Assembly: GCA_963780895.1 (NCBI GenBank)
Contig: CAWAEG010000009.1
Location: forward strand, 88,025 to 152,024
Length of the DNA stretch: 64,000 nucleotides
Source: an uncultured Acidobacteriota bacterium
GTDB taxonomy: Bacteria; Acidobacteriota; Vicinamibacteria; Vicinamibacterales; SCN-69-37
Reading direction: 5' to 3'
Made by a program: the position numbers and the translations under genes. The notes beneath the pieces are model-generated. The model was given only the letters and a program-made list of their open reading frames with translations, had not been told where the DNA came from and did not search any database. This document shows, piece after piece, positions 1 through 61,667 of this stretch (the stretch's first letter is position 1; each line of letters begins with the position of its first letter).

Positions 1-187
1 ACCAATCCGACCGTCGAAGGCGAAGCGACCGCGCTCTATCTGGCGCAGCTGCTCAAGCCGCTCGGCGTCCGCGTGACGCGCATCGCGATGGGCGTGCCGG
101 TCGGCAGCCGACCTCGACTACACCGACGAGTTCACGATGTCGAAGGCGATGGATGGGCGGACGGGAGATGTAGAAGGCCCTAGGTGA
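1..187 (+). pseudogene. recR: RecR recombination protein, C-terminal part (5' end outside window). Frame broken by one extra base near nt 109.
   Basis: Frame 1 from nt 1 reads [36 protein letters not shown] (RecR Toprim region). The expected continuation [17 protein letters not shown]... is readable only from nt 110 in the next frame, ending at TGA 185-187. Confidence 0.75.
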
Positions 188-7928: not shown

Positions 7929-9662
7929 TTAGTACCAAGGGTCGTCTTCGCGAACCGCACCGCCCCAAATCATTCCGCCACCCCAAATCATTCCCCCGCC
8001 CCAAATCATCCCCTCGCCCGAAATCGACTTGCCGCCCCAAATCATGCCGTCGCCTGAGATGGCTTCGCCGCCCCAAATCATTCCGCCGCCCCAGATCATT
8101 CCGCCACCCCAGATCATCCCGCCGCCCCAGATCATCCCGCCGCCCCAGATCATTCCGCCACCCCAGATCATTCCGCCACCCCAGATCATTCCGTTGCTCC
8201 AGACTGATCCGTCGACGAAATACAATTGACCGGCGTGGACTTCTTCTCCTCCAATGACGTTCCACGGCTGGAGTTGGGTGCCCTTAGCCTGGACAAGTGC
8301 GGCAGCCAGCGCGACGTTCACACTGCCTGCGCCTTGTTCGGCCAGACCGTAACCAGGGACAAACTGGGCGGAGATCTGCAAGGCGAACTTGGCCTCGCGC
8401 GGAGTCAGCTTCGGTTGGGCTTGGAGGATCTGCGCCACTGCGCCAGAAACTACGGCCGCTGCCATGCTAGTTCCCGACAACTTGAGGTAGGTCCCACCGG
8501 CCGACCCGTACATCCGTCTCTGTGGGTGGTCCCGCCACAACGAACTGCTCTCTGAGATAGCGGCCACGATGGCGTTTCCAGGCGCTACAACGTCTGGCTT
8601 CATCTGCCATGATTCGGGCGAATCCGGCGATCCCACCGGCCCGCGCGAGCTGAACGTCGCCAGAATGTCATCCGATCGCTCGACCGTGCCGCGCGTATTC
8701 AGTGCGCCAACCGTGAGCGCTCCGGGCGTGTAACCTGGCGAAATAATCGCCCCCACGATCGGCGTGCCATCCTCGAGCTTGCCCAGATTGCCCGCCGACG
8801 CGACGACGACGAGCCCGGCGTCCACCGCCTGCTCGACGGCCTTCGCCATCGGGTCATCCATCGGTGACCCGGACGCGGGATGGCCGAGCGACAGGTTGAT
8901 GACGCGAATCTTGAATTTGTCCCTGTTGGCGATCGTCCACTCGATCGCCTCGAGCACGTCCGAGACGTACCCCGATCCGTCTTCGCCCAGGACCTTCAGG
9001 CTGATCAGGTGCGCGCCCGGCGCCATGCCGACGTACTCGCTGCCTTCGGCCGTCCGGCTGCCGGCGCCGCTGCCCGCGATGATGCTCGCGACGTGTGTGC
9101 CGTGCCCGTACGCGTCGGCTGCGTCAACTTGCTCGGCGTTGAGCTCGCCACGGAAATCGAGCGACAGCGCCAGCCGATTCGCCAGATCCGCGTGCCGTGC
9201 GATGCCCGAATCAATGACCGCGACGCCGATGCCCTTGCCCGTGATTCCGCTGAAGTTCCCCGACTTGCCGGCCGCCTTCCAGAGCTGGCTGGCGCCCGTC
9301 GACTGCGCCGTCACCCCGCTCATCCCGACGACGCGGTCGTCCTGCGAAAGCGCCGCGACCTTGGCGTCGAGCGCGAGCAAACGGATTTGATCCGCCGACC
9401 CGCTCAGGACGGCTCCCGACCCGAGACGCTTCTCGACCCGCACCCGGTACGTCGCGGCCAGACGGTTCACCTCCGCCTGGGGCCCTTCGTACACGACATC
9501 CAGCCGGGCGGCGCCCGCCGCAAGCTGGTGCTCGAGCCCTCGTGAGAGCTTCGCCCGATGCTGTGCCGTGGCCGGTAGCGGTGCCGCAAGGATTCCCGCC
9601 ACCAGGCCGATAAACGTAATCAGCCGGGCGCGGTCGACCGTGGGGAACGGTAGGCGACTCAT
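7929..9662 (-). CDS. Secreted subtilisin-family (S8) serine protease with an I9-like propeptide and a C-terminal MIWGGG hexapeptide-repeat domain.
   Basis: Catalytic contexts VAVIDSGI (Asp), HGTHVASIIAG (His), VINLSLG (Asn) and SGTSMAAAVVSG (Ser). The signal-like start MSRLPFPTVDRARLITFIGLVAGILAAPLPATA begins at ATG 9662; the ORF track extends to 9713. Confidence 0.85.
   Translation of the reverse strand: MSRLPFPTVDRARLITFIGLVAGILAAPLPATAQHRAKLSRGLEHQLAAGAARLDVVYEGPQAEVNRLAATYRVRVEKRLGSGAVLSGSADQIRLLALDAKVAALSQDDRVVGMSGVTAQSTGASQLWKAAGKSGNFSGITGKGIGVAVIDSGIARHADLANRLALSLDFRGELNAEQVDAADAYGHGTHVASIIAGSGAGSRTAEGSEYVGMAPGAHLISLKVLGEDGSGYVSDVLEAIEWTIANRDKFKIRVINLSLGHPASGSPMDDPMAKAVEQAVDAGLVVVASAGNLGKLEDGTPIVGAIISPGYTPGALTVGALNTRGTVERSDDILATFSSRGPVGSPDSPESWQMKPDVVAPGNAIVAAISESSSLWRDHPQRRMYGSAGGTYLKLSGTSMAAAVVSGAVAQILQAQPKLTPREAKFALQISAQFVPGYGLAEQGAGSVNVALAAALVQAKGTQLQPWNVIGGEEVHAGQLYFVDGSVWSNGMIWGGGMIWGGGMIWGGGMIWGGGMIWGGGMIWGGGMIWGGEAISGDGMIWGGKSISGEGMIWGGGMIWGGGMIWGGAVREDDPWY
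7959..8199 (-). repeat. Tandem 18-bp coding repeat (about 13-14 units) encoding (G)MIWGG(G).
   Basis: Plus-strand units ccgccNccccaRatcatN recur head to tail. The translation has 12 MIWGG(G) units plus two variants (EAISGD, KSISGE), all in frame within the protease. Confidence 0.9.
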
Positions 9663-9864
9663 TTTATGCGTCCTGAACGCTAAAGACACCGAAGTGGGAG
9701 AACCGCGCGCCACTTACGAGCATGTACTGTACCAACGAATCTGTATTACAAAGCTTGGATTTCCGCTTAGTTCTTGAGCAGAAACCACTTGGAGCCTGCC
9801 TGATCACCGACAAATCCGGAAGTTTGATCACAAAACCGAAAGCCGAATCACGGACTTGGAATTC

Positions 9865-19002: not shown

Positions 19003-19050
19003 AGACCTCGGGTTTCGTTTTAGCCAGGACGAAAAATGAAACCCGATGTC
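19003..19050. repeat. ACCTCGGGTTTC hairpin family, copy 1.
   Basis: agacctcgggtttcgtttt - loop - aaaaatgaaacccgatgtc, in the divergent spacer between the NlpC/P60 and HNH genes. Confidence 0.8.
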
Positions 19051-22265: not shown

Positions 22266-23406
22266 ATGTCGTTCCCCCTCACCGGTGTCCGCGTCCTGGA
22301 TCTCACTCGTCTCGTCCCGGGCGCCTTTGCGACGTTGATGCTCGCGGAGATGGGCGCGGAGGTGATCAAGGTCGAAGATCCCGCGGGGCGGGGATCCGAT
22401 GCGCCATTTCCCGCCTTTGCTCGACGGGCGTGGCGTCTACGATTTGCTGCTCAACCGCGGGAAGAAGAGCGTCGCGCTCGATTTGCGCGCCCCCGACAGC
22501 GCAGGCGTTCTCGATCGATTGGTCGCGCGTGCGGACATCGTCGTCGAGAGCTTCCGGCCGGCGACGGCGAAGCGGCTCGGCGTGTCGGCGGAGCAGATGC
22601 GCGCCCGGCATCCGCGGCTGATTCATTGCTCCATCACGGGGTACGGGCAAACGGGTCCCTACGCGGACCGGCCGGGTCACGATCTGAACTACGTCGCCCT
22701 GTCGGGTGTGCTCGGGCTGGATCAGCCACAGCCGGCGACGCTCCCGAGGATGTTTCTGGCGGACGTCGGCGGCGGAGCCATGAGCTCCGTTGTCGGGATC
22801 CTCGCGGCGCTTTACGGGCGCGAGCGGACCGGCGAAGGCGCGTCCATCGATCTGTCCATGCACGAGGCGGCGCTGTACTGGCTCATGCTGCCCGCCGCCC
22901 GCGAGCTGCTCGACCAGGGAGCGCGCGCGACGGGGGAGTTGCCCGTCTTCGGGGCCCACGCCTGCTACAACGTCTACGAGACGCGCGACGGAAGACACGT
23001 GGCGCTCGGCGCGCTCGAGCCGAAGTTCTGGAGCGCGTTCTGCTGTGCGCTCGGGCGCGAGGATCTGCTGTCCAGGCAGCTCACCGAAGGTGACGATCAG
23101 GCCGAGGTCATCGCCGAAGTCCGGCGGACGTTCGTCACCCGCACCCGCGACGAGTGGGTCGCGTTCTTCGAGGGCCATGACGTCGCGCTGACACCGGTCA
23201 ACGGGCCGGCTGAGGCCCTGGCCGATCCACATGTCACCGCGCGCGGGACGGTGGTACGCGGCCGGGACCTTCGCGCCGTTCGACCTCCGTTCGCGCGGGC
23301 CGTGGCCGATCTTTGCCCGGCGCCCGCGCTCGGTGAACACACGGAGGAGGTGCTTCAGGGCTGCTACAATGGCCTGTTGGGCTCAGGGCTGGAAGAGGCC
23401 ACATAA
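22266..23406 (+). pseudogene. Family III CoA-transferase (CaiB/BaiF-like). Frame break at ~22386-22389.
   Basis: The sequence starts [41 protein letters not shown] and then continues in the next frame as (G)[31 protein letters not shown]...[21 protein letters not shown]. There is one extra base in the run gcggggcgggg. Confidence 0.8.
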
Positions 23407-23411
23407 GACCG

Positions 23412-26303
<2,892 letters not shown>

Positions 26304-28736: not shown

Positions 28737-28793
28737 AAGACCTCGGGTTTCGTTTTTTTGAGCCTGACGACCAAAAACGAAACCCGAGGTCTT
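28737..28793. repeat. ACCTCGGGTTTC hairpin family, copy 2 (perfect 21-bp stem).
   Basis: aagacctcgggtttcgttttt - ttgagcctgacgacc - aaaaacgaaacccgaggtctt, in the divergent sigma/lysA spacer. Confidence 0.85.
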
Positions 28794-31470: not shown

Positions 31471-31543
31471 CCTGGGCCTTCCAGCCTTGGGCGTTGTGCC
31501 TTGTGCCTTGGGCCTTCGGCCCTCGGCCTATGGCCTTCGGCCT
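31471..31543. repeat. Heptamer tandem tract (gtgcctt / gggcctt / cggccct / tggcctt).
   Basis: Ten or so consecutive degenerate 7-nt units read by eye, between the rsfS stop and the comF start. Confidence 0.7.
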
Positions 31544-34353: not shown

Positions 34354-34410
34354 CACCTCGGGTTTCCTTTTCCTGGTGGTGCTCTTCGGAGGAAAAGGAA
34401 ACCCGAGGTG
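34354..34410. repeat. ACCTCGGGTTTC hairpin family, copy 3.
   Basis: cacctcgggtttcctttt - loop - aaaaggaaacccgaggtg, upstream of rplU. A second small hairpin, ctcagttc-N8-gaactgag, follows at 34414-34437. Confidence 0.8.
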
Positions 34411-36908: not shown

Positions 36909-37003
36909 GGAACTCAAAACTGAGAACTGAGGACTCTGCAACACTTGCCCGACGTGGGAGCATGCTCTAAGTTCTGAGTTCCAGGTTCTGAGTTCTGAGT
37001 TTC
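36909..37003. repeat. Heptamer-word hairpin (gaactca/gaactga arms) just upstream of topA.
   Basis: Left arm ggaactcaaaactgagaactgaggactc pairs with right arm aagttctgagttccaggttctgagttctgagtttc across a ~32-nt loop. Confidence 0.75.
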
Positions 37004-37032: not shown

Positions 37033-39483
37033 GTGGCAAAGGTACTCGTGGTCGTCGAATCGCCGGCGAAGGCGAAGACGATCAACAAATATCTCGGACG
37101 CGACTACAAAGTCATCGCGTCGATGGGCCATGTCCGCGACCTGCCCAAGAGCAAGCTCGGCGTCGACGTGGACGCCGGTTTCGAACCGGAATACGTCGTC
37201 CTTCCCGACCGCGTGAAGGTCATCAAGGAGCTCAAGGACGCGGCGAAGAGCGCCACCGACATCTACGTCGCGACCGACCCTGATCGCGAAGGCGAAGCGA
37301 TCGGCTGGCATCTGTCCGAGGAGCTCGGCGCGGCGCGCAAGAAAGTGCGCCGTCTGATGTTCAACGAGATCACGAAGAAGGCGATCCTCGAGGCGATCAA
37401 GCACCCGGGCGAGATCGACATGAAGATGGTCGACGCGCAGCAGGCGCGGCGCGTGCTCGATCGCCTGGTCGGCTACAAAATCAGCCCCATCCTCTGGGAC
37501 AAGGTGCGTCGCGGCCTCAGCGCGGGCCGCGTCCAGTCGGTCGCGCTCAAGCTCATCTGCGATCGCGAGCGCGAGATCGAAGCGTTCGTGCCCGAGGAGT
37601 ACTGGCACGTCTTCGCGCGACTGGCCGCCGACGAGCCGCCGGAGTTCGACGCGAAGCTCGTCAAGAAGGGCGAGAGCGCCGTCAAAGTCACGAACGACGC
37701 CGAGGCGCAGGCCATCCTGTCGGATCTGTCGGCGGCGACGTTCGTGGTCTCGTCGGTGACGATGAAAGAGCGGAAGAAGCACGCCGTTCCGCCGTTCATC
37801 ACCAGCAAGCTGCAGCAGGCGGCCCGTTTTCCAGTGAAGAAAACGATGATGGTCGCGCAGCAGCTCTACGAAGGCATCGAGCTGCCGGGCGAAGATGCGG
37901 CCGTCGGGTTGATCACGTACATGCGCACCGACTCCGTGCGCGTCGCGGACCAGGCGCTCGACGAGGTTCGCGGGTTCATCGGCGCGCAGTTCGGCGACGC
38001 CTACGTGCCGGAGCAGGCGAACCGCTACCGCGTGAAAGCCACGGCGCAGGACGCGCACGAAGCCATTCGCCCGACGTCGATGAAATATCACCCGGACGAG
38101 GTGCGCGCGCAGCTCACGCCCGACCAGTACTACCTGTACCGGCTGATCTGGAACCGGTTCGTCGCGTCGCAGATGACGCCCGCCACGTTCGACGACACGA
38201 CGGTCGACATCGCCGCCGGCGACTATCTCTTCCGCGCGAAGGGATCCGTGCCGAAGTTCGCAGGCTGGCTTGCCGTGTACGGCCAGGCCACGACCGAGGC
38301 CGAGGAGAGCGAGCGCACCGAGCAGCCGCTGCAGCCCCCCGCGGGACAGACCGATCAGGACGATGAGCCGTCGAGCGCGATTCTGCCGCCGATGCGCGAG
38401 GGACAGATTCTCGACGTCAAGGCCATCCGGCCTGAACAGAAGTTCACGCAGCCACCGGCGCGCTACAGCGAAGCGACGCTCGTGAAAGCGCTCGAAGAAG
38501 ACGGGATCGGCCGCCCCAGCACGTATGCGTCGATCATCTCGGTGCTGCAGGCGCGCGATTACGTGAACAAGGTCGAGAGCCGGTTCCGCCCGACGATCCT
38601 CGGCCGGCGGCTCGTCGATAAGCTGCTGCACCCCGCGTTCGACGACATCCTCGACGTCGAGTACACGGCGAAGATGGAGGAGCAGCTCGACGAGATCGAA
38701 AAGGGCAGGGCGGACTACAAGGAAACGCTCGCCGCGTTCTACCAGAAGTTCAAGAAGGACCTGAAGCGCGCGAGCAAGGAAATGCCGAACTTCAAGGAAG
38801 GGCAGCCGCTCGACCCGCCCATGCCCTGCGACAAGTGCGGGCAGGGTGAGATGGTGGAGAAGGCCGGCCGGTTCGGCATCTTCCTGGCCTGCAGCCGGTA
38901 TCCGGAGTGCGACAACACGAAGGAGCTCGAGACGGCCGAGACGTCCACCGAGGAGCTCGACGAGACGTGCGAGAACTGCGGGCGGCCGATGGTCGTCAAG
39001 CGCGGCCGCTTCGGCATGTTCCTCGCCTGCACCGGGTATCCCGAGTGCAAGACGACCAGAAAGATCATCTCGACGAAGCAGGGCGTCAAAGCCGCGCAGC
39101 CCGATCAGGTGCTCGACGAGACCTGCCCGAACTGCGGCAAGAACCTCGTCGTGAAGCACGGCCGCTTCGGCGAGTTCACGGCGTGCACGGGCTACCCCGA
39201 GTGCAAATACGTGAAGCTGAAATCGACCGGCGTGATCTGCCCGAAAGACGGTGGCGACATCGTCGAACGCAAGTCGCGCCGCGGGAAAGTGTTCTACGGC
39301 TGCGCCAACTATCCGAAGTGCGACTTCACCCTCTGGAACAAGCCCATCGCCGAGCCGTGCCCCAAATGCGGGTGGAAGTTCCTCACGGAAAAGATCACCA
39401 AGCGCTACGGCCGGCAGCTCATCTGCGCCAACGAGGCGTGCGACTACGTGCGGGCGGAGGAGCTGGCGACGGCGGAGGCGTGA
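37033..39483 (+). CDS. topA: DNA topoisomerase I.
   Basis: 816-aa intact ORF with GTG start after the RBS aaggagag. Toprim motifs VVVESPAKAKTI and DPDREGE, active-site region ITYMRTDS, and four C-terminal Cys4 ribbons. Confidence 0.95.
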   Translation: MAKVLVVVESPAKAKTINKYLGRDYKVIASMGHVRDLPKSKLGVDVDAGFEPEYVVLPDRVKVIKELKDAAKSATDIYVATDPDREGEAIGWHLSEELGAARKKVRRLMFNEITKKAILEAIKHPGEIDMKMVDAQQARRVLDRLVGYKISPILWDKVRRGLSAGRVQSVALKLICDREREIEAFVPEEYWHVFARLAADEPPEFDAKLVKKGESAVKVTNDAEAQAILSDLSAATFVVSSVTMKERKKHAVPPFITSKLQQAARFPVKKTMMVAQQLYEGIELPGEDAAVGLITYMRTDSVRVADQALDEVRGFIGAQFGDAYVPEQANRYRVKATAQDAHEAIRPTSMKYHPDEVRAQLTPDQYYLYRLIWNRFVASQMTPATFDDTTVDIAAGDYLFRAKGSVPKFAGWLAVYGQATTEAEESERTEQPLQPPAGQTDQDDEPSSAILPPMREGQILDVKAIRPEQKFTQPPARYSEATLVKALEEDGIGRPSTYASIISVLQARDYVNKVESRFRPTILGRRLVDKLLHPAFDDILDVEYTAKMEEQLDEIEKGRADYKETLAAFYQKFKKDLKRASKEMPNFKEGQPLDPPMPCDKCGQGEMVEKAGRFGIFLACSRYPECDNTKELETAETSTEELDETCENCGRPMVVKRGRFGMFLACTGYPECKTTRKIISTKQGVKAAQPDQVLDETCPNCGKNLVVKHGRFGEFTACTGYPECKYVKLKSTGVICPKDGGDIVERKSRRGKVFYGCANYPKCDFTLWNKPIAEPCPKCGWKFLTEKITKRYGRQLICANEACDYVRAEELATAEA

Positions 39484-39495
39484 GAGGCTCGCGAC

Positions 39496-39530
39496 AGGCC
39501 GAAGGCCTTGGGCCTTTAGCCTTGGGCCTG
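39496..39530. repeat. Heptamer tract (aggccga aggcctt gggcctt tagcctt gggcct) after the topA stop.
   Basis: Read by eye. It contains short self-complementary GGCC cores and may act as a terminator, but no T-run follows. Confidence 0.6.
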
Positions 39531-39555
39531 GACACCATCCCTGTATCATCATCTC

Positions 39556-40995
39556 GTGATCCACATCATCGGCGGCGGGTTGGCTGGCAGCGAGGCCGCG
39601 TGGCAGTCGGCCGCGATGGGCGTCCCGGCGACGATCCACGAGATGCGGCCGATCCAGCCGACCGCCGTCCATCAGACGGATCGGCTCGCTGAGCTCGTCT
39701 GCAGCAATTCGTTCCGCGGCGACAAGCTCGACAACGCGGTCGGGCTGCTCAAAGAGGAAATGCGGCGGCTTGGCTCGCTCGTCATGCAGGTGGCCGACCG
39801 CGTGCGCGTGCCCGCCGGGGCGGCGCTGGCGGTCGATCGCGCGAAGTTCGCGGAGGGCGTCACAGAGGCGATTGAGGCGCACCCGCTGATTCGGGTGGAG
39901 CGCGGCGAGATCGCCCGCATCCCGGCGTCAGACGAGATGTCGCCGGTCATCGTCGCGACGGGCCCGCTCACGTCGGAGGGACTCTCCGCCGGCATCGCGG
40001 CATTCGTCGGCCAAGATCACCTGGCGTTCTTCGACGCGATCAGTCCGATCGTGCTGGCCGAGACGATCGACATGTCGAAGGTGTTCCGGCAGTCGAGGTG
40101 GGACCGATCGCTGCCGTTGATTGAGGGCGCGGCCCGACGAGATAACTCAGACGCAAGATCACGGACGGGCACGTTGCCGACGTCTGGGACAGGTCTTGAA
40201 GGGCGAGACCTGTCCCCGAGCGTGCGGGATCGGATCCCACCTGAGGGGGACTACCTCAATTGCCCCCTCAGCAGAGACGAGTACCTCGCCTTCCACAACG
40301 CGATCGTGACCGCCGAAAAGGCAGCTGTACACGACTTCGATCGGACCAAGTTCTTCGAAGGCTGTCTGCCCGTCGAAGTGATGGCGCACCGCGGCGTCGA
40401 TACGCTCCGATTCGGCCCGATGAAGCCGGCCGGGTTGACCGATCCGCGCACGGGCCGCTGGCCGTACGCCGTCGTGCAGCTGAGACAAGACACGCTGGCG
40501 GGCGATCACTACAGCCTCGTCGGTTTTCAGACGCAGCTCAAATGGGGCGAGCAGGCGCGCGTGCTGCGGATGATCCCTGGACTCGAGCAGGCCGAGTTCG
40601 TCCGCTTCGGCATGATCCACCGCAACACGTACATCAACGCGCCGACGGTGCTCACCGAGACCTGGCAGACGCGGCAGCGCCCGGACCTGTTTTTCGCGGG
40701 CCAGGTGTCGGGCGTCGAAGGCTATGTCGAGTCGGCGGCGTCCGGTCTCATCGCAGGCCGCAACGCCGCCCGCCTGGTTCTCGGCAAGCCCGCGATCGCG
40801 CCGCCACGCACCACCGCCATCGGCGCCCTCGGTTACTACGTCGCGCACGCCGATCCGCGGCACTACGATCCGTCGAACATCACGTTCGGCATCATTCCGC
40901 CGCTCGCCTCGCCGCCCAGAAGCCGCCAGGAGCGCCAGCTGGCCACGAGCCGCCGCGCGCTCGCCGACCTCGAGCGATGGGCGCATCGAATGTAG
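39556..40995 (+). CDS. trmFO: Methylenetetrahydrofolate-tRNA-(uracil-5)-methyltransferase TrmFO (Gid), carrying a ~45-aa internal insertion.
   Basis: IIGGGLAGSEAAW, ELVCSNSFRGD, DYLNCPLSRDEY. Intact 479-aa ORF. Confidence 0.9.
   Translation: MIHIIGGGLAGSEAAWQSAAMGVPATIHEMRPIQPTAVHQTDRLAELVCSNSFRGDKLDNAVGLLKEEMRRLGSLVMQVADRVRVPAGAALAVDRAKFAEGVTEAIEAHPLIRVERGEIARIPASDEMSPVIVATGPLTSEGLSAGIAAFVGQDHLAFFDAISPIVLAETIDMSKVFRQSRWDRSLPLIEGAARRDNSDARSRTGTLPTSGTGLEGRDLSPSVRDRIPPEGDYLNCPLSRDEYLAFHNAIVTAEKAAVHDFDRTKFFEGCLPVEVMAHRGVDTLRFGPMKPAGLTDPRTGRWPYAVVQLRQDTLAGDHYSLVGFQTQLKWGEQARVLRMIPGLEQAEFVRFGMIHRNTYINAPTVLTETWQTRQRPDLFFAGQVSGVEGYVESAASGLIAGRNAARLVLGKPAIAPPRTTAIGALGYYVAHADPRHYDPSNITFGIIPPLASPPRSRQERQLATSRRALADLERWAHRM
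40095..40243. repeat. Structured palindromic insertion, in frame within trmFO.
   Basis: Outer inverted repeat gaggtgggaccgatcg (40095-40110) / gatcggatcccacctg (40228-40243). Inner perfect hairpin gggacaggtct-N9-agacctgtccc (40186-40216). It encodes the non-conserved LPLIEGAARRDNSDARSRTGTLPTSGTGLEGRDLSPSVRDRIPPEG. Confidence 0.7.
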
Positions 40996-41062: not shown

Positions 41063-42085
41063 ATGTCAGCGCGAGACGCCGTTCAGGATCAGACGAGAAA
41101 CTTCCTGTCGTTTCTCCGCTTCAACCGGAACGTGTCTCCTCATACGCTGCGGGCCTACGAGACCGACCTCGCCCAGCTCGTCGATCACCTGGCCGGTCGC
41201 GACGGGTGCCCGCCGAGCGCGGTGACGCTCGCGCGGTTCGACGTGGACGGCGTGCGGGGGTTTCTCGAAGAGCTGCACGACCGCGGCAACAGCCGATCGT
41301 CGTCGGCGCGCCGGCTGGCGGCGTGCCGCACCTTTGCCCGGTACCTCATTCGCGAAGAGCTGATCGAGGACGACCCGACTGCGCTCGTCGGCGCGCCGCG
41401 AAAAGATCAGACGCTGCCTTCGCATCTGCCTGCCGACGACATGGAGCGGCTGCTGGCGGAGCCCGACACGGACACCGTCGGCGGCCGCCGCGATCGCGCG
41501 ATTCTGGAGCTGTTTTACGCCTCCGGTCTGCGTCTCAGCGAGCTGGTCGGGCTCGACCTCGAAGACACCAATCTTTCGAGCCGCGTCGTTCGCGTGCGCG
41601 GGAAGGGCGGCAAGGAGCGGCTGGTGCCCTTCAACAGGTCCGCCACCGACGCCATCCGCTCGATGCTGGCGGATGGGAAGGGCAAAGGGCAAAGGGCAGA
41701 GGGCAGAGGAGAGGGGAAAGGGACGAGGGAAAAGGGGAGGTTCGGACCGGGCGCGAGATTCAGCCGGCACGACCCGCGGCGCCAGCCGCTGTTCCTCAAT
41801 CTGCGCGGGCAGCGGTTGACGACCCGAAGCGTCGATCGCATCGTGCGGCGGTATGTGAAGCAGGCTGCGCTCACCGGCGCGATCAGCCCCCATGCACTGC
41901 GCCACACGTTCGCGACACATCTGCTGCAGGCCGGCGCCGATCTGCGTGCGATTCAGGAGCTGCTCGGCCATGCGCGGCTCAGCACCACGCAGCGCTACAC
42001 CCACCTCGACGTCGGACGACTGATGGAGGTCTACAAGAACGCGCACCCGCGGGCCCGGCGTTCATCGCGGCCAAGACCTGATTGA
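41063..42085 (+). CDS. xerC: Tyrosine recombinase XerC/XerD family.
   Basis: LSPHTLRAYETDL, LRLSELVGL, VRGKGGKERLVP, HALRHTFATHLL, LGHARLSTTQRYTHL. Confidence 0.9.
   Translation: MSARDAVQDQTRNFLSFLRFNRNVSPHTLRAYETDLAQLVDHLAGRDGCPPSAVTLARFDVDGVRGFLEELHDRGNSRSSSARRLAACRTFARYLIREELIEDDPTALVGAPRKDQTLPSHLPADDMERLLAEPDTDTVGGRRDRAILELFYASGLRLSELVGLDLEDTNLSSRVVRVRGKGGKERLVPFNRSATDAIRSMLADGKGKGQRAEGRGEGKGTREKGRFGPGARFSRHDPRRQPLFLNLRGQRLTTRSVDRIVRRYVKQAALTGAISPHALRHTFATHLLQAGADLRAIQELLGHARLSTTQRYTHLDVGRLMEVYKNAHPRARRSSRPRPD
41675..41740. repeat. Purine-rich heptamer tract (aagggca x3, gagggca, degenerating) in frame inside xerC.
   Basis: gggaagggcaaagggcaaagggcagagggcagaggagaggggaaaggg... encodes GKGKGQRAEGRGEGKGTREKG, in a loop that is variable in the family. 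Confidence 0.75.
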
Positions 42086-48764: not shown

Positions 48765-48820
48765 ATGACCTCTGAGGTCATTTTATGAGAAGGAGAAAAA
48801 ATGACCTCAGAGGTCTTCTC
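48763..48820. repeat. ATGACCTCnGAGGTC double-palindrome element, copy 1.
   Basis: aaatgacctctgaggtcatttt - atgagaaggag - aaaaaatgacctcagaggtcttctc. It spans the whole spacer from the regulator stop (48819-48821) to the ABC-F TTG (48764). Confidence 0.85.
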
Positions 48821-49614: not shown

Positions 49615-50223
49615 ATGACCCCGACGGATGAGGAACTCGTTGCCCGCGCCTCCGCGGGCGACCTGGAAAGCTTCAACCAGCTCGTTACACGCTGGGAGAG
49701 GCCGATCTATGCTCTGGCGTACCGGACGCTGGGTCGTGAAGAAGACGCTCGCGATGTCGTGCAGGAAGCCTTCCTCCGGGCCTACCGCGGCCTTCGCGGG
49801 TTCAAGGGACAGGCGAAGTTCTCGTCATGGCTGTATCGGATCACGCTGAACCTCTGCCGCGACTGGATCCGGCGCGAGCGGCGTGCGCCGCTCGTTCAGG
49901 TGCCGGAAGGCACCGATCCGGTGGAACTGGCCGATGAGCGGGTCGCGCCGACTGAATCGGTCGAGGAGCTCGTCGCACGACGCGAGCTGTCAGAGGCGGT
50001 CGCGCTGGCGATGGCCGAGCTGCCGGAGGAACAGCGCACGGCGATCATGTTGAAGGAGTACCACGGCCTGACGTTTCAGGAGATTGCGGACATGCTCGAC
50101 TGTCCGCTCAGCACCGTGAAGACGCGTCTCTATCAGGGGCTCTCTGTTCTGCGTCGCCGACTGGAGCGGAGGCAGGCGGAGGCGGCGAGCCTGAGACGCG
50201 CGACGTGGGAAAGCAGTACATGA
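49615..50223 (+). CDS. ECF-type sigma-70 family factor.
   Basis: Region 2 is DVVQEAFLRAYRGLRGFKGQAKFSSWLYRITLNLCRDW and region 4 is TFQEIADMLDCPLSTVKTRLYQG. Confidence 0.85.
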   Translation: MTPTDEELVARASAGDLESFNQLVTRWERPIYALAYRTLGREEDARDVVQEAFLRAYRGLRGFKGQAKFSSWLYRITLNLCRDWIRRERRAPLVQVPEGTDPVELADERVAPTESVEELVARRELSEAVALAMAELPEEQRTAIMLKEYHGLTFQEIADMLDCPLSTVKTRLYQGLSVLRRRLERRQAEAASLRRATWESST

Positions 50224-50342
50224 AACTTAGAACTTCAAACTTCAAACTTCGAACTTCGAACGACAGACCCGGGACGTCGAAATCGGCGTTCATGTGACCG
50301 GGTTCGAAAGTTCGAAGTTTGACGTTCGGAGTTCGAAGTTTC
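50222..50342. repeat. ~120-nt heptamer-word hairpin (gaacttc / gaagttc arms) between the sigma and anti-sigma genes.
   Basis: Left arm gaaacttagaacttcaaacttcaaacttcgaacttcgaac pairs with right arm gttcgaaagttcgaagtttgacgttcggagttcgaagtttc. The inner stem continues (acccgg/ccgggt). Confidence 0.8.
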
Positions 50343-61609: not shown

Positions 61610-61667
61610 AGATGACCTCCGAGGTCATTTTCCTGAGCGCAAATAAAATGACCTCGGAGGTCTTAAG
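61610..61667. repeat. ATGACCTCnGAGGTC double-palindrome element, copy 2. The first palindrome plus tttt looks like the pccB terminator.
   Basis: agatgacctccgaggtcatttt - cctgagcgcaaat - aaaatgacctcggaggtcttaag, in the same plus-strand orientation as copy 1. Confidence 0.85.

What the first reader, a model, noticed from the sequence alone, without database searches (positions are those of the whole stretch)
40095..40243. Palindromic ~135-150-bp element inserted in frame into trmFO
TrmFO proteins, as I recall the family, run directly from the S-R-[YW]-x-[KR]-G motif into Y-L-N-C-P. Here about 45 non-conserved residues (LPLIEGAARRDNSDARSRTGTLPTSGTGLEGRDLSPSVRDRIPPEG) intervene.

The DNA encoding them is bounded by an inverted repeat (gaggtgggaccgatcg / gatcggatcccacctg) and contains a perfect internal hairpin (gggacaggtct-N9-agacctgtccc). 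The reading frame stays open.

This is the pattern known from Rickettsia palindromic elements, which insert in frame into protein-coding genes. Combined with the heptamer tracts in uvrA and xerC, it suggests that this genome tolerates structured repeats inside conserved genes.
Basis: partly seen in the sequence, partly recalled or inferred. Interest (0 to 1): 0.7.

Follow-up and report, generated by a model that had tools for sequence, protein, structure and literature searches.

The report
In-frame palindromic repeat inside trmFO
A conserved tRNA-methylase gene of a soil acidobacterium carries, in frame, a decayed copy of a small hairpin-forming repeat that also sits inside other genes and between genes in related genomes; this is the pattern known from Rickettsia, now seen in a different phylum.

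Summary
trmFO (39556-40995) has about 44 extra residues between SRWDRSL and GDYLNCP relative to the solved Thermus enzyme. The DNA holds a perfect 13-bp-stem hairpin (40186-40216) and folds far better than shuffles (z = -4).

It is a truncated copy (about 40108-40245) of a roughly 200-nt palindromic doublet. The full doublet has two inverted hairpin units, GGGACAGG(G/T)CTTG-N5-C(G/A)A(C/G)(C/A)CCTGTCCC, each with conserved flanks. Compared with a relative whose TrmFO is 89% identical, the window copy has lost its first hairpin through a 48-nt deletion between CGTT direct repeats.

The same doublet lies intergenically in another Acidobacteriota MAG. The lone hairpin lies in frame in nadA, selB, a DUF1302 gene and an NHL-propeller gene of Vicinamibacterales MAGs. 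Filled and empty alleles occur among close relatives at trmFO, nadA and selB.

The TrmFO loop is hypervariable (6-114 aa). 43 of the 120 closest homologues carry one to several units, in both orientations.

No second copy exists in the 64-kb window. No transposase was found, and the copies lack the GTAG/CGTC tags of classical REPs.

Verdict: a new member of a known kind (intragenic REP / RPE-like repeats), with an unusual recurrent site in trmFO. The mobilisation mechanism is unknown.

The parts
39556..40995 (+). trmFO coding sequence (479 aa, GTG start). It hosts the element and lies in the conserved order topA-trmFO-xerC.
   Evidence: The same gene order is seen in relatives.
40096..40110 (+). 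Host codons R-W-D-R-S (AGGTGGGACCGATCG). They act as the left arm of the outer inverted repeat but are not part of the inserted DNA.
   Evidence: The same residues and near-identical DNA are present in the insert-free allele L144 and others. They pair with 40228-40242 in the fold.
40108..40245 (+). The whole element remnant (about 138 nt, 46 codons). It is a truncated copy of a roughly 200-nt palindromic doublet made of unit A, a spacer and inverted unit B.
   Evidence: Alignment to the full doublets in L001, L143 and L142 and to the empty allele L144. nhmmer L001 element against window 40109-40244, E = 2e-15.
40108..40134 (+). The remains of unit A: left-end remnant TCGCTGCCG plus the 3' flank TTGATTGAGGGCGCGGCC. 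Hairpin A (48 nt, encoding VQQGTGLDLQDLSPPS in L001) has been deleted between CGTT direct repeats; the junction is at 40114-40119.
   Evidence: Codon-by-codon comparison with L001 and L143.
40135..40185 (+). Central spacer and 5' flank of unit B. The central CGTGATC/GATCACG stem is decayed, and the flank is 9 nt shorter than in L001.
   Evidence: Alignment.
40186..40216 (+). Hairpin B: GGGACAGGTCTTG-AAGGG-CGAGACCTGTCCC, a 13-bp stem with a 5-nt loop, translated as GTGLEGRDLSP. This is the conserved core of the repeat family.
   Evidence: Covariance model R1 scores 40182-40220 at 49.9 bits, E = 5e-9, and it is the only hit in the window.
40217..40245 (+). 3' flank of unit B and right end of the element (CCGAGCGTGCGGGATCGGATCCCACCTGAG). 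Positions 40228-40242 form the right arm of the outer inverted repeat.
   Evidence: Homologous right ends (..GATCGGATC(A/C)GTCCTGAG) are found in L001, L143, L142, L083, L112 and in the intergenic copy L120.

Best explanation
Positions 40108-40245 are a decayed, in-frame copy of a small non-autonomous palindromic repeat family of Vicinamibacterales (Acidobacteriota).

The basic unit is a GC-rich hairpin of 31-39 nt: GGGGACAGG(G/T)CTTG-N5-C(G/A)A(C/G)(C/A)CCTGTCCCC. The full form is a doublet of two inverted units with conserved flanks, about 190-210 nt, which folds into one long hairpin. This is the architecture of REP doublets (REPINs) and of Rickettsia palindromic elements.

Proposed history:
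1. Copies reach new sites at a low rate by an unidentified mechanism. A single-strand hairpin intermediate handled by a transposase acting in trans is the most likely. Microhomology-driven template switching is the alternative.
2. Inside genes, only copies that keep the frame, lack stop codons and fall in permissive loops survive. The doublet has one long open frame, which reads GTG..LSP through each stem.
3. The loop of TrmFO between SRWDRSL and GDYLNCP is such a permissive site and has been occupied repeatedly or for a long time.
4. Once resident, the palindrome is unstable. Slippage across hairpins between short direct repeats deletes or duplicates units. This produced the window's copy, in which hairpin A was lost between CGTT repeats, and produced loops of 6-114 aa in relatives.
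5. The remnant is translated as a Pro/Ser/Gly/Arg-rich, probably disordered surface loop with little effect on the enzyme.

Shown: the anatomy, homology to copies elsewhere, filled and empty alleles, the deletion junction and the open frame. Inferred: the mode of mobilisation, translation and neutrality.
For: Insertion relative to solved TrmFO.

Loop length is 6-114 aa in the 120 closest homologues. 43 carry the hairpin peptide GTG....LSP, 3 carry the alternative-frame peptide DRGR..SPVP, and 9 carry two or more units.

Units occur in both orientations. The reverse complement of unit A gives the unit B peptide.

The full doublet in the L001, L143, L142 and L002 trmFO genes aligns end to end with an intergenic copy in L120 (E = 5e-19), and no trmFO flank homology surrounds that copy. 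A 5-copy alignment gives a 64-pair long hairpin in which 9 pairs are kept through changes on both sides.

A scan of 185,579 species genomes with the core pattern gave 57 loci. About 22 of them come from Acidobacteriota or Vicinamibacterales MAGs: 9 in trmFO and 13 elsewhere. The genic copies among those 13 are in frame in nadA (L104, L135), selB (L094), a DUF1302 gene (L139) and an NHL propeller gene (L125).

Filled versus empty alleles:
- nadA: 114/120 empty, 5 filled, and the closest empties are 90-91% identical.
- selB: only 1 of 120 is filled, and the 86%-identical relative is empty.
- trmFO: filled and empty alleles are interleaved on the tree, and the P0092/P0110 pair shows a clean 24-aa indel.

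The intergenic L120 copy keeps the same open frame as the TrmFO copies, while the other five frames have stops.

The deletion junction is flanked by CGTT repeats.
Against: There is no second copy in the 64-kb window, even with a covariance model and filters off. There is none outside trmFO in 674 kb of metagenomic trmFO neighbourhoods. Copy number is therefore low, at 2-4 exact-core copies per MAG. That is far below typical REP or RPE families.

No transposase was seen next to any copy (ORF inspection only). No clean target-site duplication was found. At all three loci the insertion replaces 12-24 nt of host loop rather than simply adding DNA.

A peptide-profile search of 1.84 billion representative proteins found the long units in frame in essentially no other protein.

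The rest of the source genome could not be examined, so dispersal within this organism is unproven.
Confidence: 0.72

Rival explanations
1. The structure is locus-born rather than a transposable element. The TrmFO loop is an indel hot spot where local inverted duplication (template switching) and slippage built and keep reshaping a palindrome. The few copies elsewhere arose by rare ectopic gene conversion or template switching from the trmFO 'master' copy.
For: trmFO is by far the most consistent host (43/120 homologues). The long units occur in frame in almost no other protein. Copy number is very low, and no transposase or TSD was found. The host W-D-R codons can read TGGGACAGG, which contains the hairpin arm GGGACAGG (L005, L020, L129). 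The loop also accumulates unrelated tandem repeats in other relatives. The intergenic copy keeps the TrmFO reading frame.
Against: Empty-allele loops show no significant similarity to the element: only L144 reached 1/200 shuffles, which is not significant over 29 tests. Complementarity between host flanks is not a general feature of copies. Solitary hairpins with identical 13-bp stems sit at at least 6 unrelated loci in several genomes, which needs a copying mechanism that is in effect mobility.
Confidence: 0.15
2. The hairpin is a functional cis-acting nucleic-acid structure kept by selection, for example an mRNA stability, processing or ribosome-pausing signal in the topA-trmFO-xerC operon, or a protein-binding site. 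It would not be selfish or neutral DNA.
For: Perfect stems with compensatory changes between lineages (GGTCT/AGACC, GGGCT/ACCCC, GACCT/AGGTC). The loop is variable but the stem is invariant. Strong folding z-scores. Arms of the doublet co-vary.
Against: Presence/absence polymorphism among relatives 88-91% identical at three loci. Decayed copies exist (L003, L014, P0126, P0135). Both orientations occur and the hosts are unrelated genes and spacers. No Rfam family matches. The covariation counts come from copies selected for pairing, so they are biased.
Confidence: 0.07
3. It is a lineage-specific protein insertion selected at the amino-acid level, such as a linker or interaction motif of TrmFO. 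On this view the DNA palindromy is incidental.
For: The frame is open and the peptide motif GTG..LSP recurs in many TrmFO homologues.
Against: The motif is the translation of a perfect DNA palindrome and appears in three different frames: GTG..LSP, GDRGR..SPVP and GQV..TCP. The same DNA lies in intergenic regions. The insert is absent from close relatives. The AF2 model gives the segment the lowest confidence and no secondary structure, although the model as a whole is poor.
Confidence: 0.03

Closest known systems
Rickettsia palindromic elements (RPE; Ogata et al. 2000 Science, 2002 Genome Res, as summarised in PMC10969869)
   Same: Palindromic repeats of about 100-200 nt that fold into a long hairpin. 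They are inserted in frame in unrelated housekeeping genes, carry one conserved open frame that adds a peptide, and also occur between genes.
   Different: A different phylum (Acidobacteriota against Rickettsiales) and a different sequence. Copy number appears much lower. This family is built from two inverted 31-39-nt hairpins that also occur alone. One site (the TrmFO loop) is occupied in a large share of a whole order, with multiple units. No sequence comparison with RPE consensus sequences was possible here.
REP elements and REP doublets (REPINs) mobilised by RAYT tyrosine transposases (PMC3116915, PMC3337134); intragenic GTAG/CGTC REPs (Di Nocera et al. 2013, PMC3733652)
   Same: Short GC-rich hairpins occurring as singletons and as inverted dimers that can fold into one large stem-loop. 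Di Nocera et al. already report single, dimeric and clustered REPs inside known genes such as uvrA and uvrB, encoding 20-82 aa, in Opitutus terrae, R. conorii and Thauera.
   Different: No GTAG or CGTC tag at the foot of the hairpin. Stems are longer (13-15 bp). The spacer between the two units is about 90 nt. There are few copies per genome. No RAYT/TIRYT gene has been linked to the family.
MITEs that make in-frame fusions (intragenic ERIC, Anabaena MITEs, Coxiella QMITE1; review PMC10969869)
   Same: Small non-autonomous elements with inverted termini that sometimes survive inside ORFs as in-frame fusions.
   Different: No target-site duplication and no parent IS were identified. The element is palindromic throughout rather than only at its ends.

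Membership tests
Rickettsia palindromic elements (RPE) | Palindromic repeat of about 100-150 bp with hairpin-forming potential | tested here: met
   138-nt remnant with z = -4. Full doublets of 190-210 nt fold at -129 to -164 kcal/mol. A 64-pair consensus hairpin is found.
Rickettsia palindromic elements (RPE) | In-frame insertion in several unrelated protein-coding genes, with the ORF preserved | tested here: met
   trmFO, nadA, selB, DUF1302 and NHL-propeller genes.
Rickettsia palindromic elements (RPE) | Dispersed multi-copy family within one genome (tens to hundreds of copies) | tested here: inconclusive
   One copy in this 64-kb window. Related MAGs have 2-4 exact-core copies on different contigs. 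Whole genomes could not be scanned.
Rickettsia palindromic elements (RPE) | Sequence homology to RPE-1..10 consensus sequences; Rickettsiales host | not tested
   No RPE sequences were available to the tools. The hosts here are Vicinamibacterales according to the record titles, so membership in the strict sense is unlikely.
Rickettsia palindromic elements (RPE) | Insert falls in a surface loop compatible with the protein fold | tested here: inconclusive
   Loop length varies from 6 to 114 aa among homologues, and Thermus has only 2 residues there. The AF2 model is too poor to use (pLDDT 58.9).
REP / REPIN-RAYT | 20-40-nt imperfect palindrome present as singletons and inverted doublets | tested here: met
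REP / REPIN-RAYT | Conserved unpaired GTAG or CGTC tag at one end (PMC3733652) | tested here: not met
   The flanks of 29 copies read nGCG/nCCG on the left and CTnn/CGnn on the right. No conserved GTAG or CGTC is present.
REP / REPIN-RAYT | High copy number, predominantly extragenic | tested here: not met
   No other copy in 64 kb. None outside trmFO in 674 kb of related loci. A large share of known copies lie inside genes.
REP / REPIN-RAYT | Cognate RAYT (Y1 transposase) gene flanked by the repeats | not testable with these tools
   Only 8-kb neighbourhoods were available. No obvious candidate ORF lies near copies.
MITE | Terminal inverted repeats plus target-site duplication | tested here: inconclusive
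   The ends are inverted-complementary. No consistent direct repeat was found, and 12-24 nt of host loop is replaced at trmFO, nadA and selB.
Intein / self-splicing intron | Splicing domains (intein blocks, at least about 130 aa) or a group I/II intron RNA structure | tested here: not met
   The insert is 45 aa of low-complexity sequence. There are no Rfam matches, even at E <= 1.

The most novel reading that the evidence does not exclude
The hairpin family may not be passive junk scattered at random. It could be a homing or host-recognised element for which the TrmFO loop is the preferred safe harbour, or even the master copy. On this reading, insertion is guided by similarity between the hairpin arm GGGACAGG and G-rich host sequence, such as the W-D-R codons TGGGACAGG, the AGGGACAGA next to the L015 insert, and the G-runs at the nadA and selB sites. 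The intact stems and the conserved open frame would then be maintained by a sequence-specific factor. That would explain why one site in one gene is occupied across much of an order while genomes hold only a handful of copies.
Probability: 0.12. Interest if true: 0.75.

Novelty: new member of a known kind. Interest (0 to 1): 0.5.

Why it matters
Protein-coding palindromic repeats were first described as a Rickettsia peculiarity. Intragenic REPs were later reported in a few Proteobacteria and Verrucomicrobia. This finding adds a sequence-distinct family in abundant, mostly uncultured soil Acidobacteriota (Vicinamibacterales).

It provides three loci with filled and empty alleles, and a natural series of TrmFO variants whose loop runs from 6 to 114 residues. 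That series is useful for three questions:
- how much foreign peptide a flavoenzyme loop tolerates;
- how palindromes decay inside genes;
- how new peptide segments are born.

There are practical consequences too. Such inserts split domain hits (GIDA matched in two stretches), inflate apparent divergence of a conserved marker gene, can break or mis-join assemblies, and could serve as strain-level markers.

Tried and rejected
1. Second copy in the window. blastn, nhmmer, peptide-motif, regex and covariance-model (filters off) searches all found only 40182-40220.

2. Known RNA family. Rfam gave nothing at gathering threshold or at E <= 1, apart from a chance mir-1266 match at E = 0.37.

3. In-frame hosts through a peptide profile of units A+B against 1.84 billion representative proteins. 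There were three hits: two eukaryotic repeat proteins (spurious) and one spurious ORF over an intergenic copy.

4. 'Empty loops are remnants of the element, or the element was born from the host loop'. Only L144 shares a 13-nt match with a hairpin loop (1/200 shuffles), which is not significant over 29 tests.

5. 'Insertion creates inverted copies of the host flanks'. Flank complementarity is significant only for L110 and L118, where the hairpin is nested in a larger palindrome. It is not significant for 20 other copies.

6. 'Intergenic copies are trmFO fragments'. No host-flank homology was found.

7. Transposase near copies. ORF inspection found none. No Pfam scan of all ORFs was done.

8. 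AlphaFold model of the window TrmFO. It was too poor (mean pLDDT 58.9) to place the loop.

9. Phage carriage. There were 0 matches in viral contigs.

10. Provenance of the source contig. The exact-protein look-up found no record, and no source gives the protein a name or accession.
Full report
**What is at the coordinates**

The ORF 39556-40995 (+) lies between topA (37033-39483) and a xerC-type recombinase gene (41063-42085). It is TrmFO: Pfam GIDA E = 9e-96 and T. thermophilus TrmFO 3g5q E = 1.7e-136.

In the alignment to the solved enzyme the match breaks at query residue 185 and resumes at 230, while the Thermus chain runs on without a gap (residue 183 on both sides). So about 44 residues (LPLIEGAARRDNSDARSRTGTLPTSGTGLEGRDLSPSVRDRIPPE) are extra.

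It really has a 13-bp stem and a 5-nt loop. The outer inverted repeat pairs 40096-40110 with 40228-40242. Folding of 40090-40250 is far stronger than for dinucleotide shuffles: RNA z = -4.05, DNA z = -4.28, and 0 of 200 shuffles do as well. G+C content is like the surroundings (0.65 against 0.66).

**The site in relatives**

The 120 closest TrmFO proteins (72-89% identity) differ strikingly at exactly this place. The stretch between SRWxR and DYLNCP is 6 to 114 residues long, with a median of 33.

43 of them contain one or more copies of a peptide GTG(L/V)xxxx(L/P)SP, and 3 contain DRGRxxSPVP. These peptides are translations of the hairpin in two frames:
- GGG ACA GGT ... CTG TCC CC reads GTG...LSP.
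- Because the stem is its own reverse complement, either orientation gives GTG...LSP in that frame. The loop then reads L(G/E)E(R) in one orientation and (V/L)ALQ in the other.

Other relatives have quite different low-complexity inserts at the same spot: (GAT)n, SDPG repeats, and a GQRAEDR heptamer-type tract in P0071. The loop is therefore a generally permissive indel hot spot.

**Anatomy of the element**

DNA of relatives shows the complete form. After the host codons for R-S-L come:
- a left end, GAC(A/G)AGATCnTCGCCCGTTCAGCAG;
- hairpin A;
- the flank CGCCCTCGTTGATTGAGGGC...;
- a central CGTGATC...GATCACG stem;
- the inverted flank ...GCCnCAATCAnCGACAGCG;
- hairpin B;
- a right end, CTCTCGGTCRAGATCSGATCAGTCCTGAG.

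Unit B is the reverse complement of unit A. The whole 190-210 nt folds into one long hairpin, at -129 to -164 kcal/mol. A five-copy alignment gives 64 consensus pairs, 9 of which are kept through changes on both sides.

The window's copy is a remnant, judged against L001, whose TrmFO (P0002) is 89% identical:
- it lacks 27 nt at the left end;
- it lacks 48 nt comprising hairpin A (VQQGTGLDLQDLSPPS), deleted exactly between two CGTT direct repeats;
- it lacks 9 nt in unit B.

Deletion between short direct repeats that bracket a hairpin is the classical outcome of slipped mispairing across palindromes (established knowledge). The foreign DNA is therefore about 40108-40245.

**Is it a dispersed repeat?**

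Inside the window the answer is no. blastn, nhmmer, motif searches and a covariance model run without filters find only this copy. In 674 kb of metagenomic trmFO neighbourhoods the hairpin occurs only at the trmFO site.

A scan of one genome per species (185,579 genomes) for GGGACAGGNNTN9ANNCCTGTCCC returned 57 loci. About 22 of these are from Acidobacteriota or Vicinamibacterales MAGs. Nine are in trmFO and thirteen are elsewhere.

The copies outside trmFO are:
- nadA (L104 and L135, two genomes);
- selB (L094);
- the C-terminal region of a DUF1302 protein (L139);
- the linker of an NHL-propeller protein (L125);
- several intergenic sites (L086/L114/L139a, L132, L110, L118, L111, L120).

Host identities rest on PDB and Pfam matches. 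All the genic copies are in frame.

L120 holds a complete A+B doublet upstream of a TonB-dependent-receptor-like ORF. It aligns over its full length with the trmFO doublets (E = 5e-19 to L001, 3e-17 to L002), and no trmFO flank homology surrounds it. Several MAGs have copies on two or three contigs.

Two subtypes are visible:
- Type I, GGGACAGGGCTTG..CGACCCCTGTCCC, has a conserved C.C mismatch and conserved flanks. It is the doublet unit.
- Type II, GGGACAGGTCTTG..CAAGACCTGTCCC, has a perfect stem, a variable loop and no conserved flanks. It is the solitary form found in nadA, selB and elsewhere.

The window and L001 copies have type I flanks with a type II-like stem. Pair counts on 29 copies show 95.6% pairing with changes on both sides at 5 of 14 pairs. 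Those copies were selected by a pattern that demands pairing, so this is descriptive and not a test.

**Filled and empty alleles**

nadA: 114 of the 120 closest homologues read FRKQHPGGRVIVHPEC. Five, plus the two genome loci, read FRKQW-GTGLGVQDLSP-RVIAHPEC or decayed versions of it. The nearest empties are 90-91% identical. At the DNA level CATCCGGGGGGG is replaced by TGGGGGACAGGTCTTGGGAAGCAAGACCTGTCCCCCGTG.

selB: only the L094 protein carries GTGLEVQGLSP, and the 86%-identical relative does not.

trmFO: on a tree built with the loop masked, filled and empty alleles are interleaved. Examples are P0002/P0005, P0028/P0029, P0021/P0040 and P0018/P0020. The P0092/P0110 pair differs by a clean 24-aa indel.

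Identical 13-bp stems at unrelated loci, with presence/absence among close relatives, require a copying process. I read this as mobility, although it is rare.

**What could not be shown**

No consistent target-site duplication exists. At all three loci 12-24 nt of host loop are replaced rather than simply interrupted.

The hairpins lack the GTAG or CGTC tags that define the two REP superfamilies (PMC3733652). Copy number is far below that of REP or RPE families.

A peptide profile of the doublet found practically no other protein carrying the long units in frame among 1.84 billion representatives. Outside trmFO it is therefore mostly the bare hairpin that is found inside genes.

The AlphaFold model built from a shallow alignment is poor (pLDDT 58.9). 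It shows only that residues 186-229 have the lowest confidence and no secondary structure. No Rfam family matches, and no viral contig carries the pattern.

**Most likely mechanism**

This is a selfish or neutral, non-autonomous palindromic repeat that spreads rarely. Selection filters it so that inside genes only in-frame, stop-free copies in tolerant loops persist.

The doublet has exactly one long open frame, and the intergenic L120 copy keeps that frame (VQQGTGVALQALSPLSLIE...SRSRTGLLHTSARAGTGLGKRALSPLGGERI) while the other five frames contain stops. This is also an RPE trait.

After insertion, hairpin-promoted slippage deletes and duplicates units. That yields the length series seen in TrmFO and the truncated copy in the window. 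Translation and neutrality are inferred from the intact frame and the conservation of the rest of the enzyme.

**Rivals**

(i) A locus-born palindrome in a hot-spot loop with rare ectopic copying. The low copy number, the dominance of trmFO as host and the GGGACAGG match to the W-D-R codons in some relatives favour it. The lack of similarity between empty loops and the element, the lack of general flank complementarity and the spread to at least 6 unrelated loci count against it.

(ii) A selected RNA or DNA structure. The invariant stems favour it. Polymorphism, decayed copies and heterogeneous hosts count against it.

(iii) A protein-level adaptation. The three reading frames and the intergenic copies count against it.

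**Comparison with what is known**

In-frame palindromic repeats are known: RPEs in Rickettsia (Ogata 2000 and 2002, via PMC10969869) and intragenic GTAG/CGTC REPs. The latter occur as singles, dimers and clusters encoding 20-82 aa, many of them in uvrA, uvrB and other repair genes of Opitutus terrae, R. conorii and Thauera (PMC3733652). REP doublets that fold into long hairpins are the REPINs mobilised by RAYTs (PMC3116915, PMC3337134).

The present family works like these. It fails the tag and copy-number criteria of REPs, and it cannot be assigned to an RPE family.

I found no description of such elements in Acidobacteriota in the searchable literature. That paper only mentions TIR-associated tyrosine transposases in four Acidobacteria.

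I therefore rate it a new member of a known kind. Its one unusual trait is the recurrent or persistent occupation of a single loop of TrmFO across much of an order.

**Organism**

The window's own record could not be identified. Its closest relatives in the reference genomes are labelled Vicinamibacterales or Acidobacteriota MAGs.

Noticed in passing
window 19004-19050, 28737-28793, 34354-34410, 48767-48815, 61614-61662: A second, unrelated family of long palindromes: (A)GACCTCGGGTTTCGTTTT-loop-AAAACGAAACCCGAGGTC, and a variant GACCTCYGAGGTCATTTT-N13-AAAATGACCTCRGAGGTC. There are five copies in 64 kb, folding at -31 to -52 kcal/mol. They look like intergenic REP-like elements or bidirectional terminators.
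   Followed up: partly
window 24487-24522, 41678-41740, 31484-31543, 39500-39535, 1050-1083, 36966-37001, 50223-50340: Tandem heptamer tracts (GGCCNAA, AAGGGCA, GCCTTGG, AAACTTC and others). One is in frame in a 988-aa ORF (23337-26300, probably uvrA). One is in xerC, where it reads GKGKGQRAEGRGEGKG. One is in the topA-trmFO spacer. A similar tract fills the TrmFO loop of relative P0071.
   Followed up: partly
window 7960-8193 (- strand ORF 7932-9713): An 18-nt unit repeated 13 times that encodes (GGMIWG)n inside a 594-aa ORF.
   Followed up: no
L085, L096, L100, L105, L106, L133 (Spirochaetota MAGs): A different repeat family shares the same outer stem, GGGACAGGGCTTCAGTCGCCAGCCCTGTCCC, and has conserved flanks. 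It occurs on several contigs of low-GC Spirochaetota MAGs.
   Followed up: no
L110 5950-6070; L118 6930-7060: In these two Acidobacteriota loci the GGGACAGG hairpin sits exactly in the centre of a longer, near-perfect palindrome (flank duplex -38 kcal/mol, z about -10 and -13). This suggests nested insertion into the loop of another palindrome.
   Followed up: partly
window 40228-40242 compared with L001, L143 and L142 right ends: The right end of the window copy reads TCCCACCT where relatives read TCCGTCCT or TCAGTCCT. The two changes make it perfectly complementary to the host codons AGGTGGGA at 40096-40103. This may be palindrome 'correction' after the left-end deletion, or it may be chance.
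   Followed up: partly
L129 4465-4501 (MAG MFD02979.bin.2.72): A further hairpin copy lies upstream of the trmFO start in this relative, in addition to the one inside the gene.
   Followed up: no
L144 (empty trmFO allele), loop GGCGGCGGTCCCTCGGAGAGCGAC: It shares an exact 13-nt string, CTCGGAGAGCGAC, with the loop and 3' arm of hairpin B of L142. The match is nominally 1/200 shuffles but is not significant after 29 tests. It remains unexplained.
   Followed up: yes
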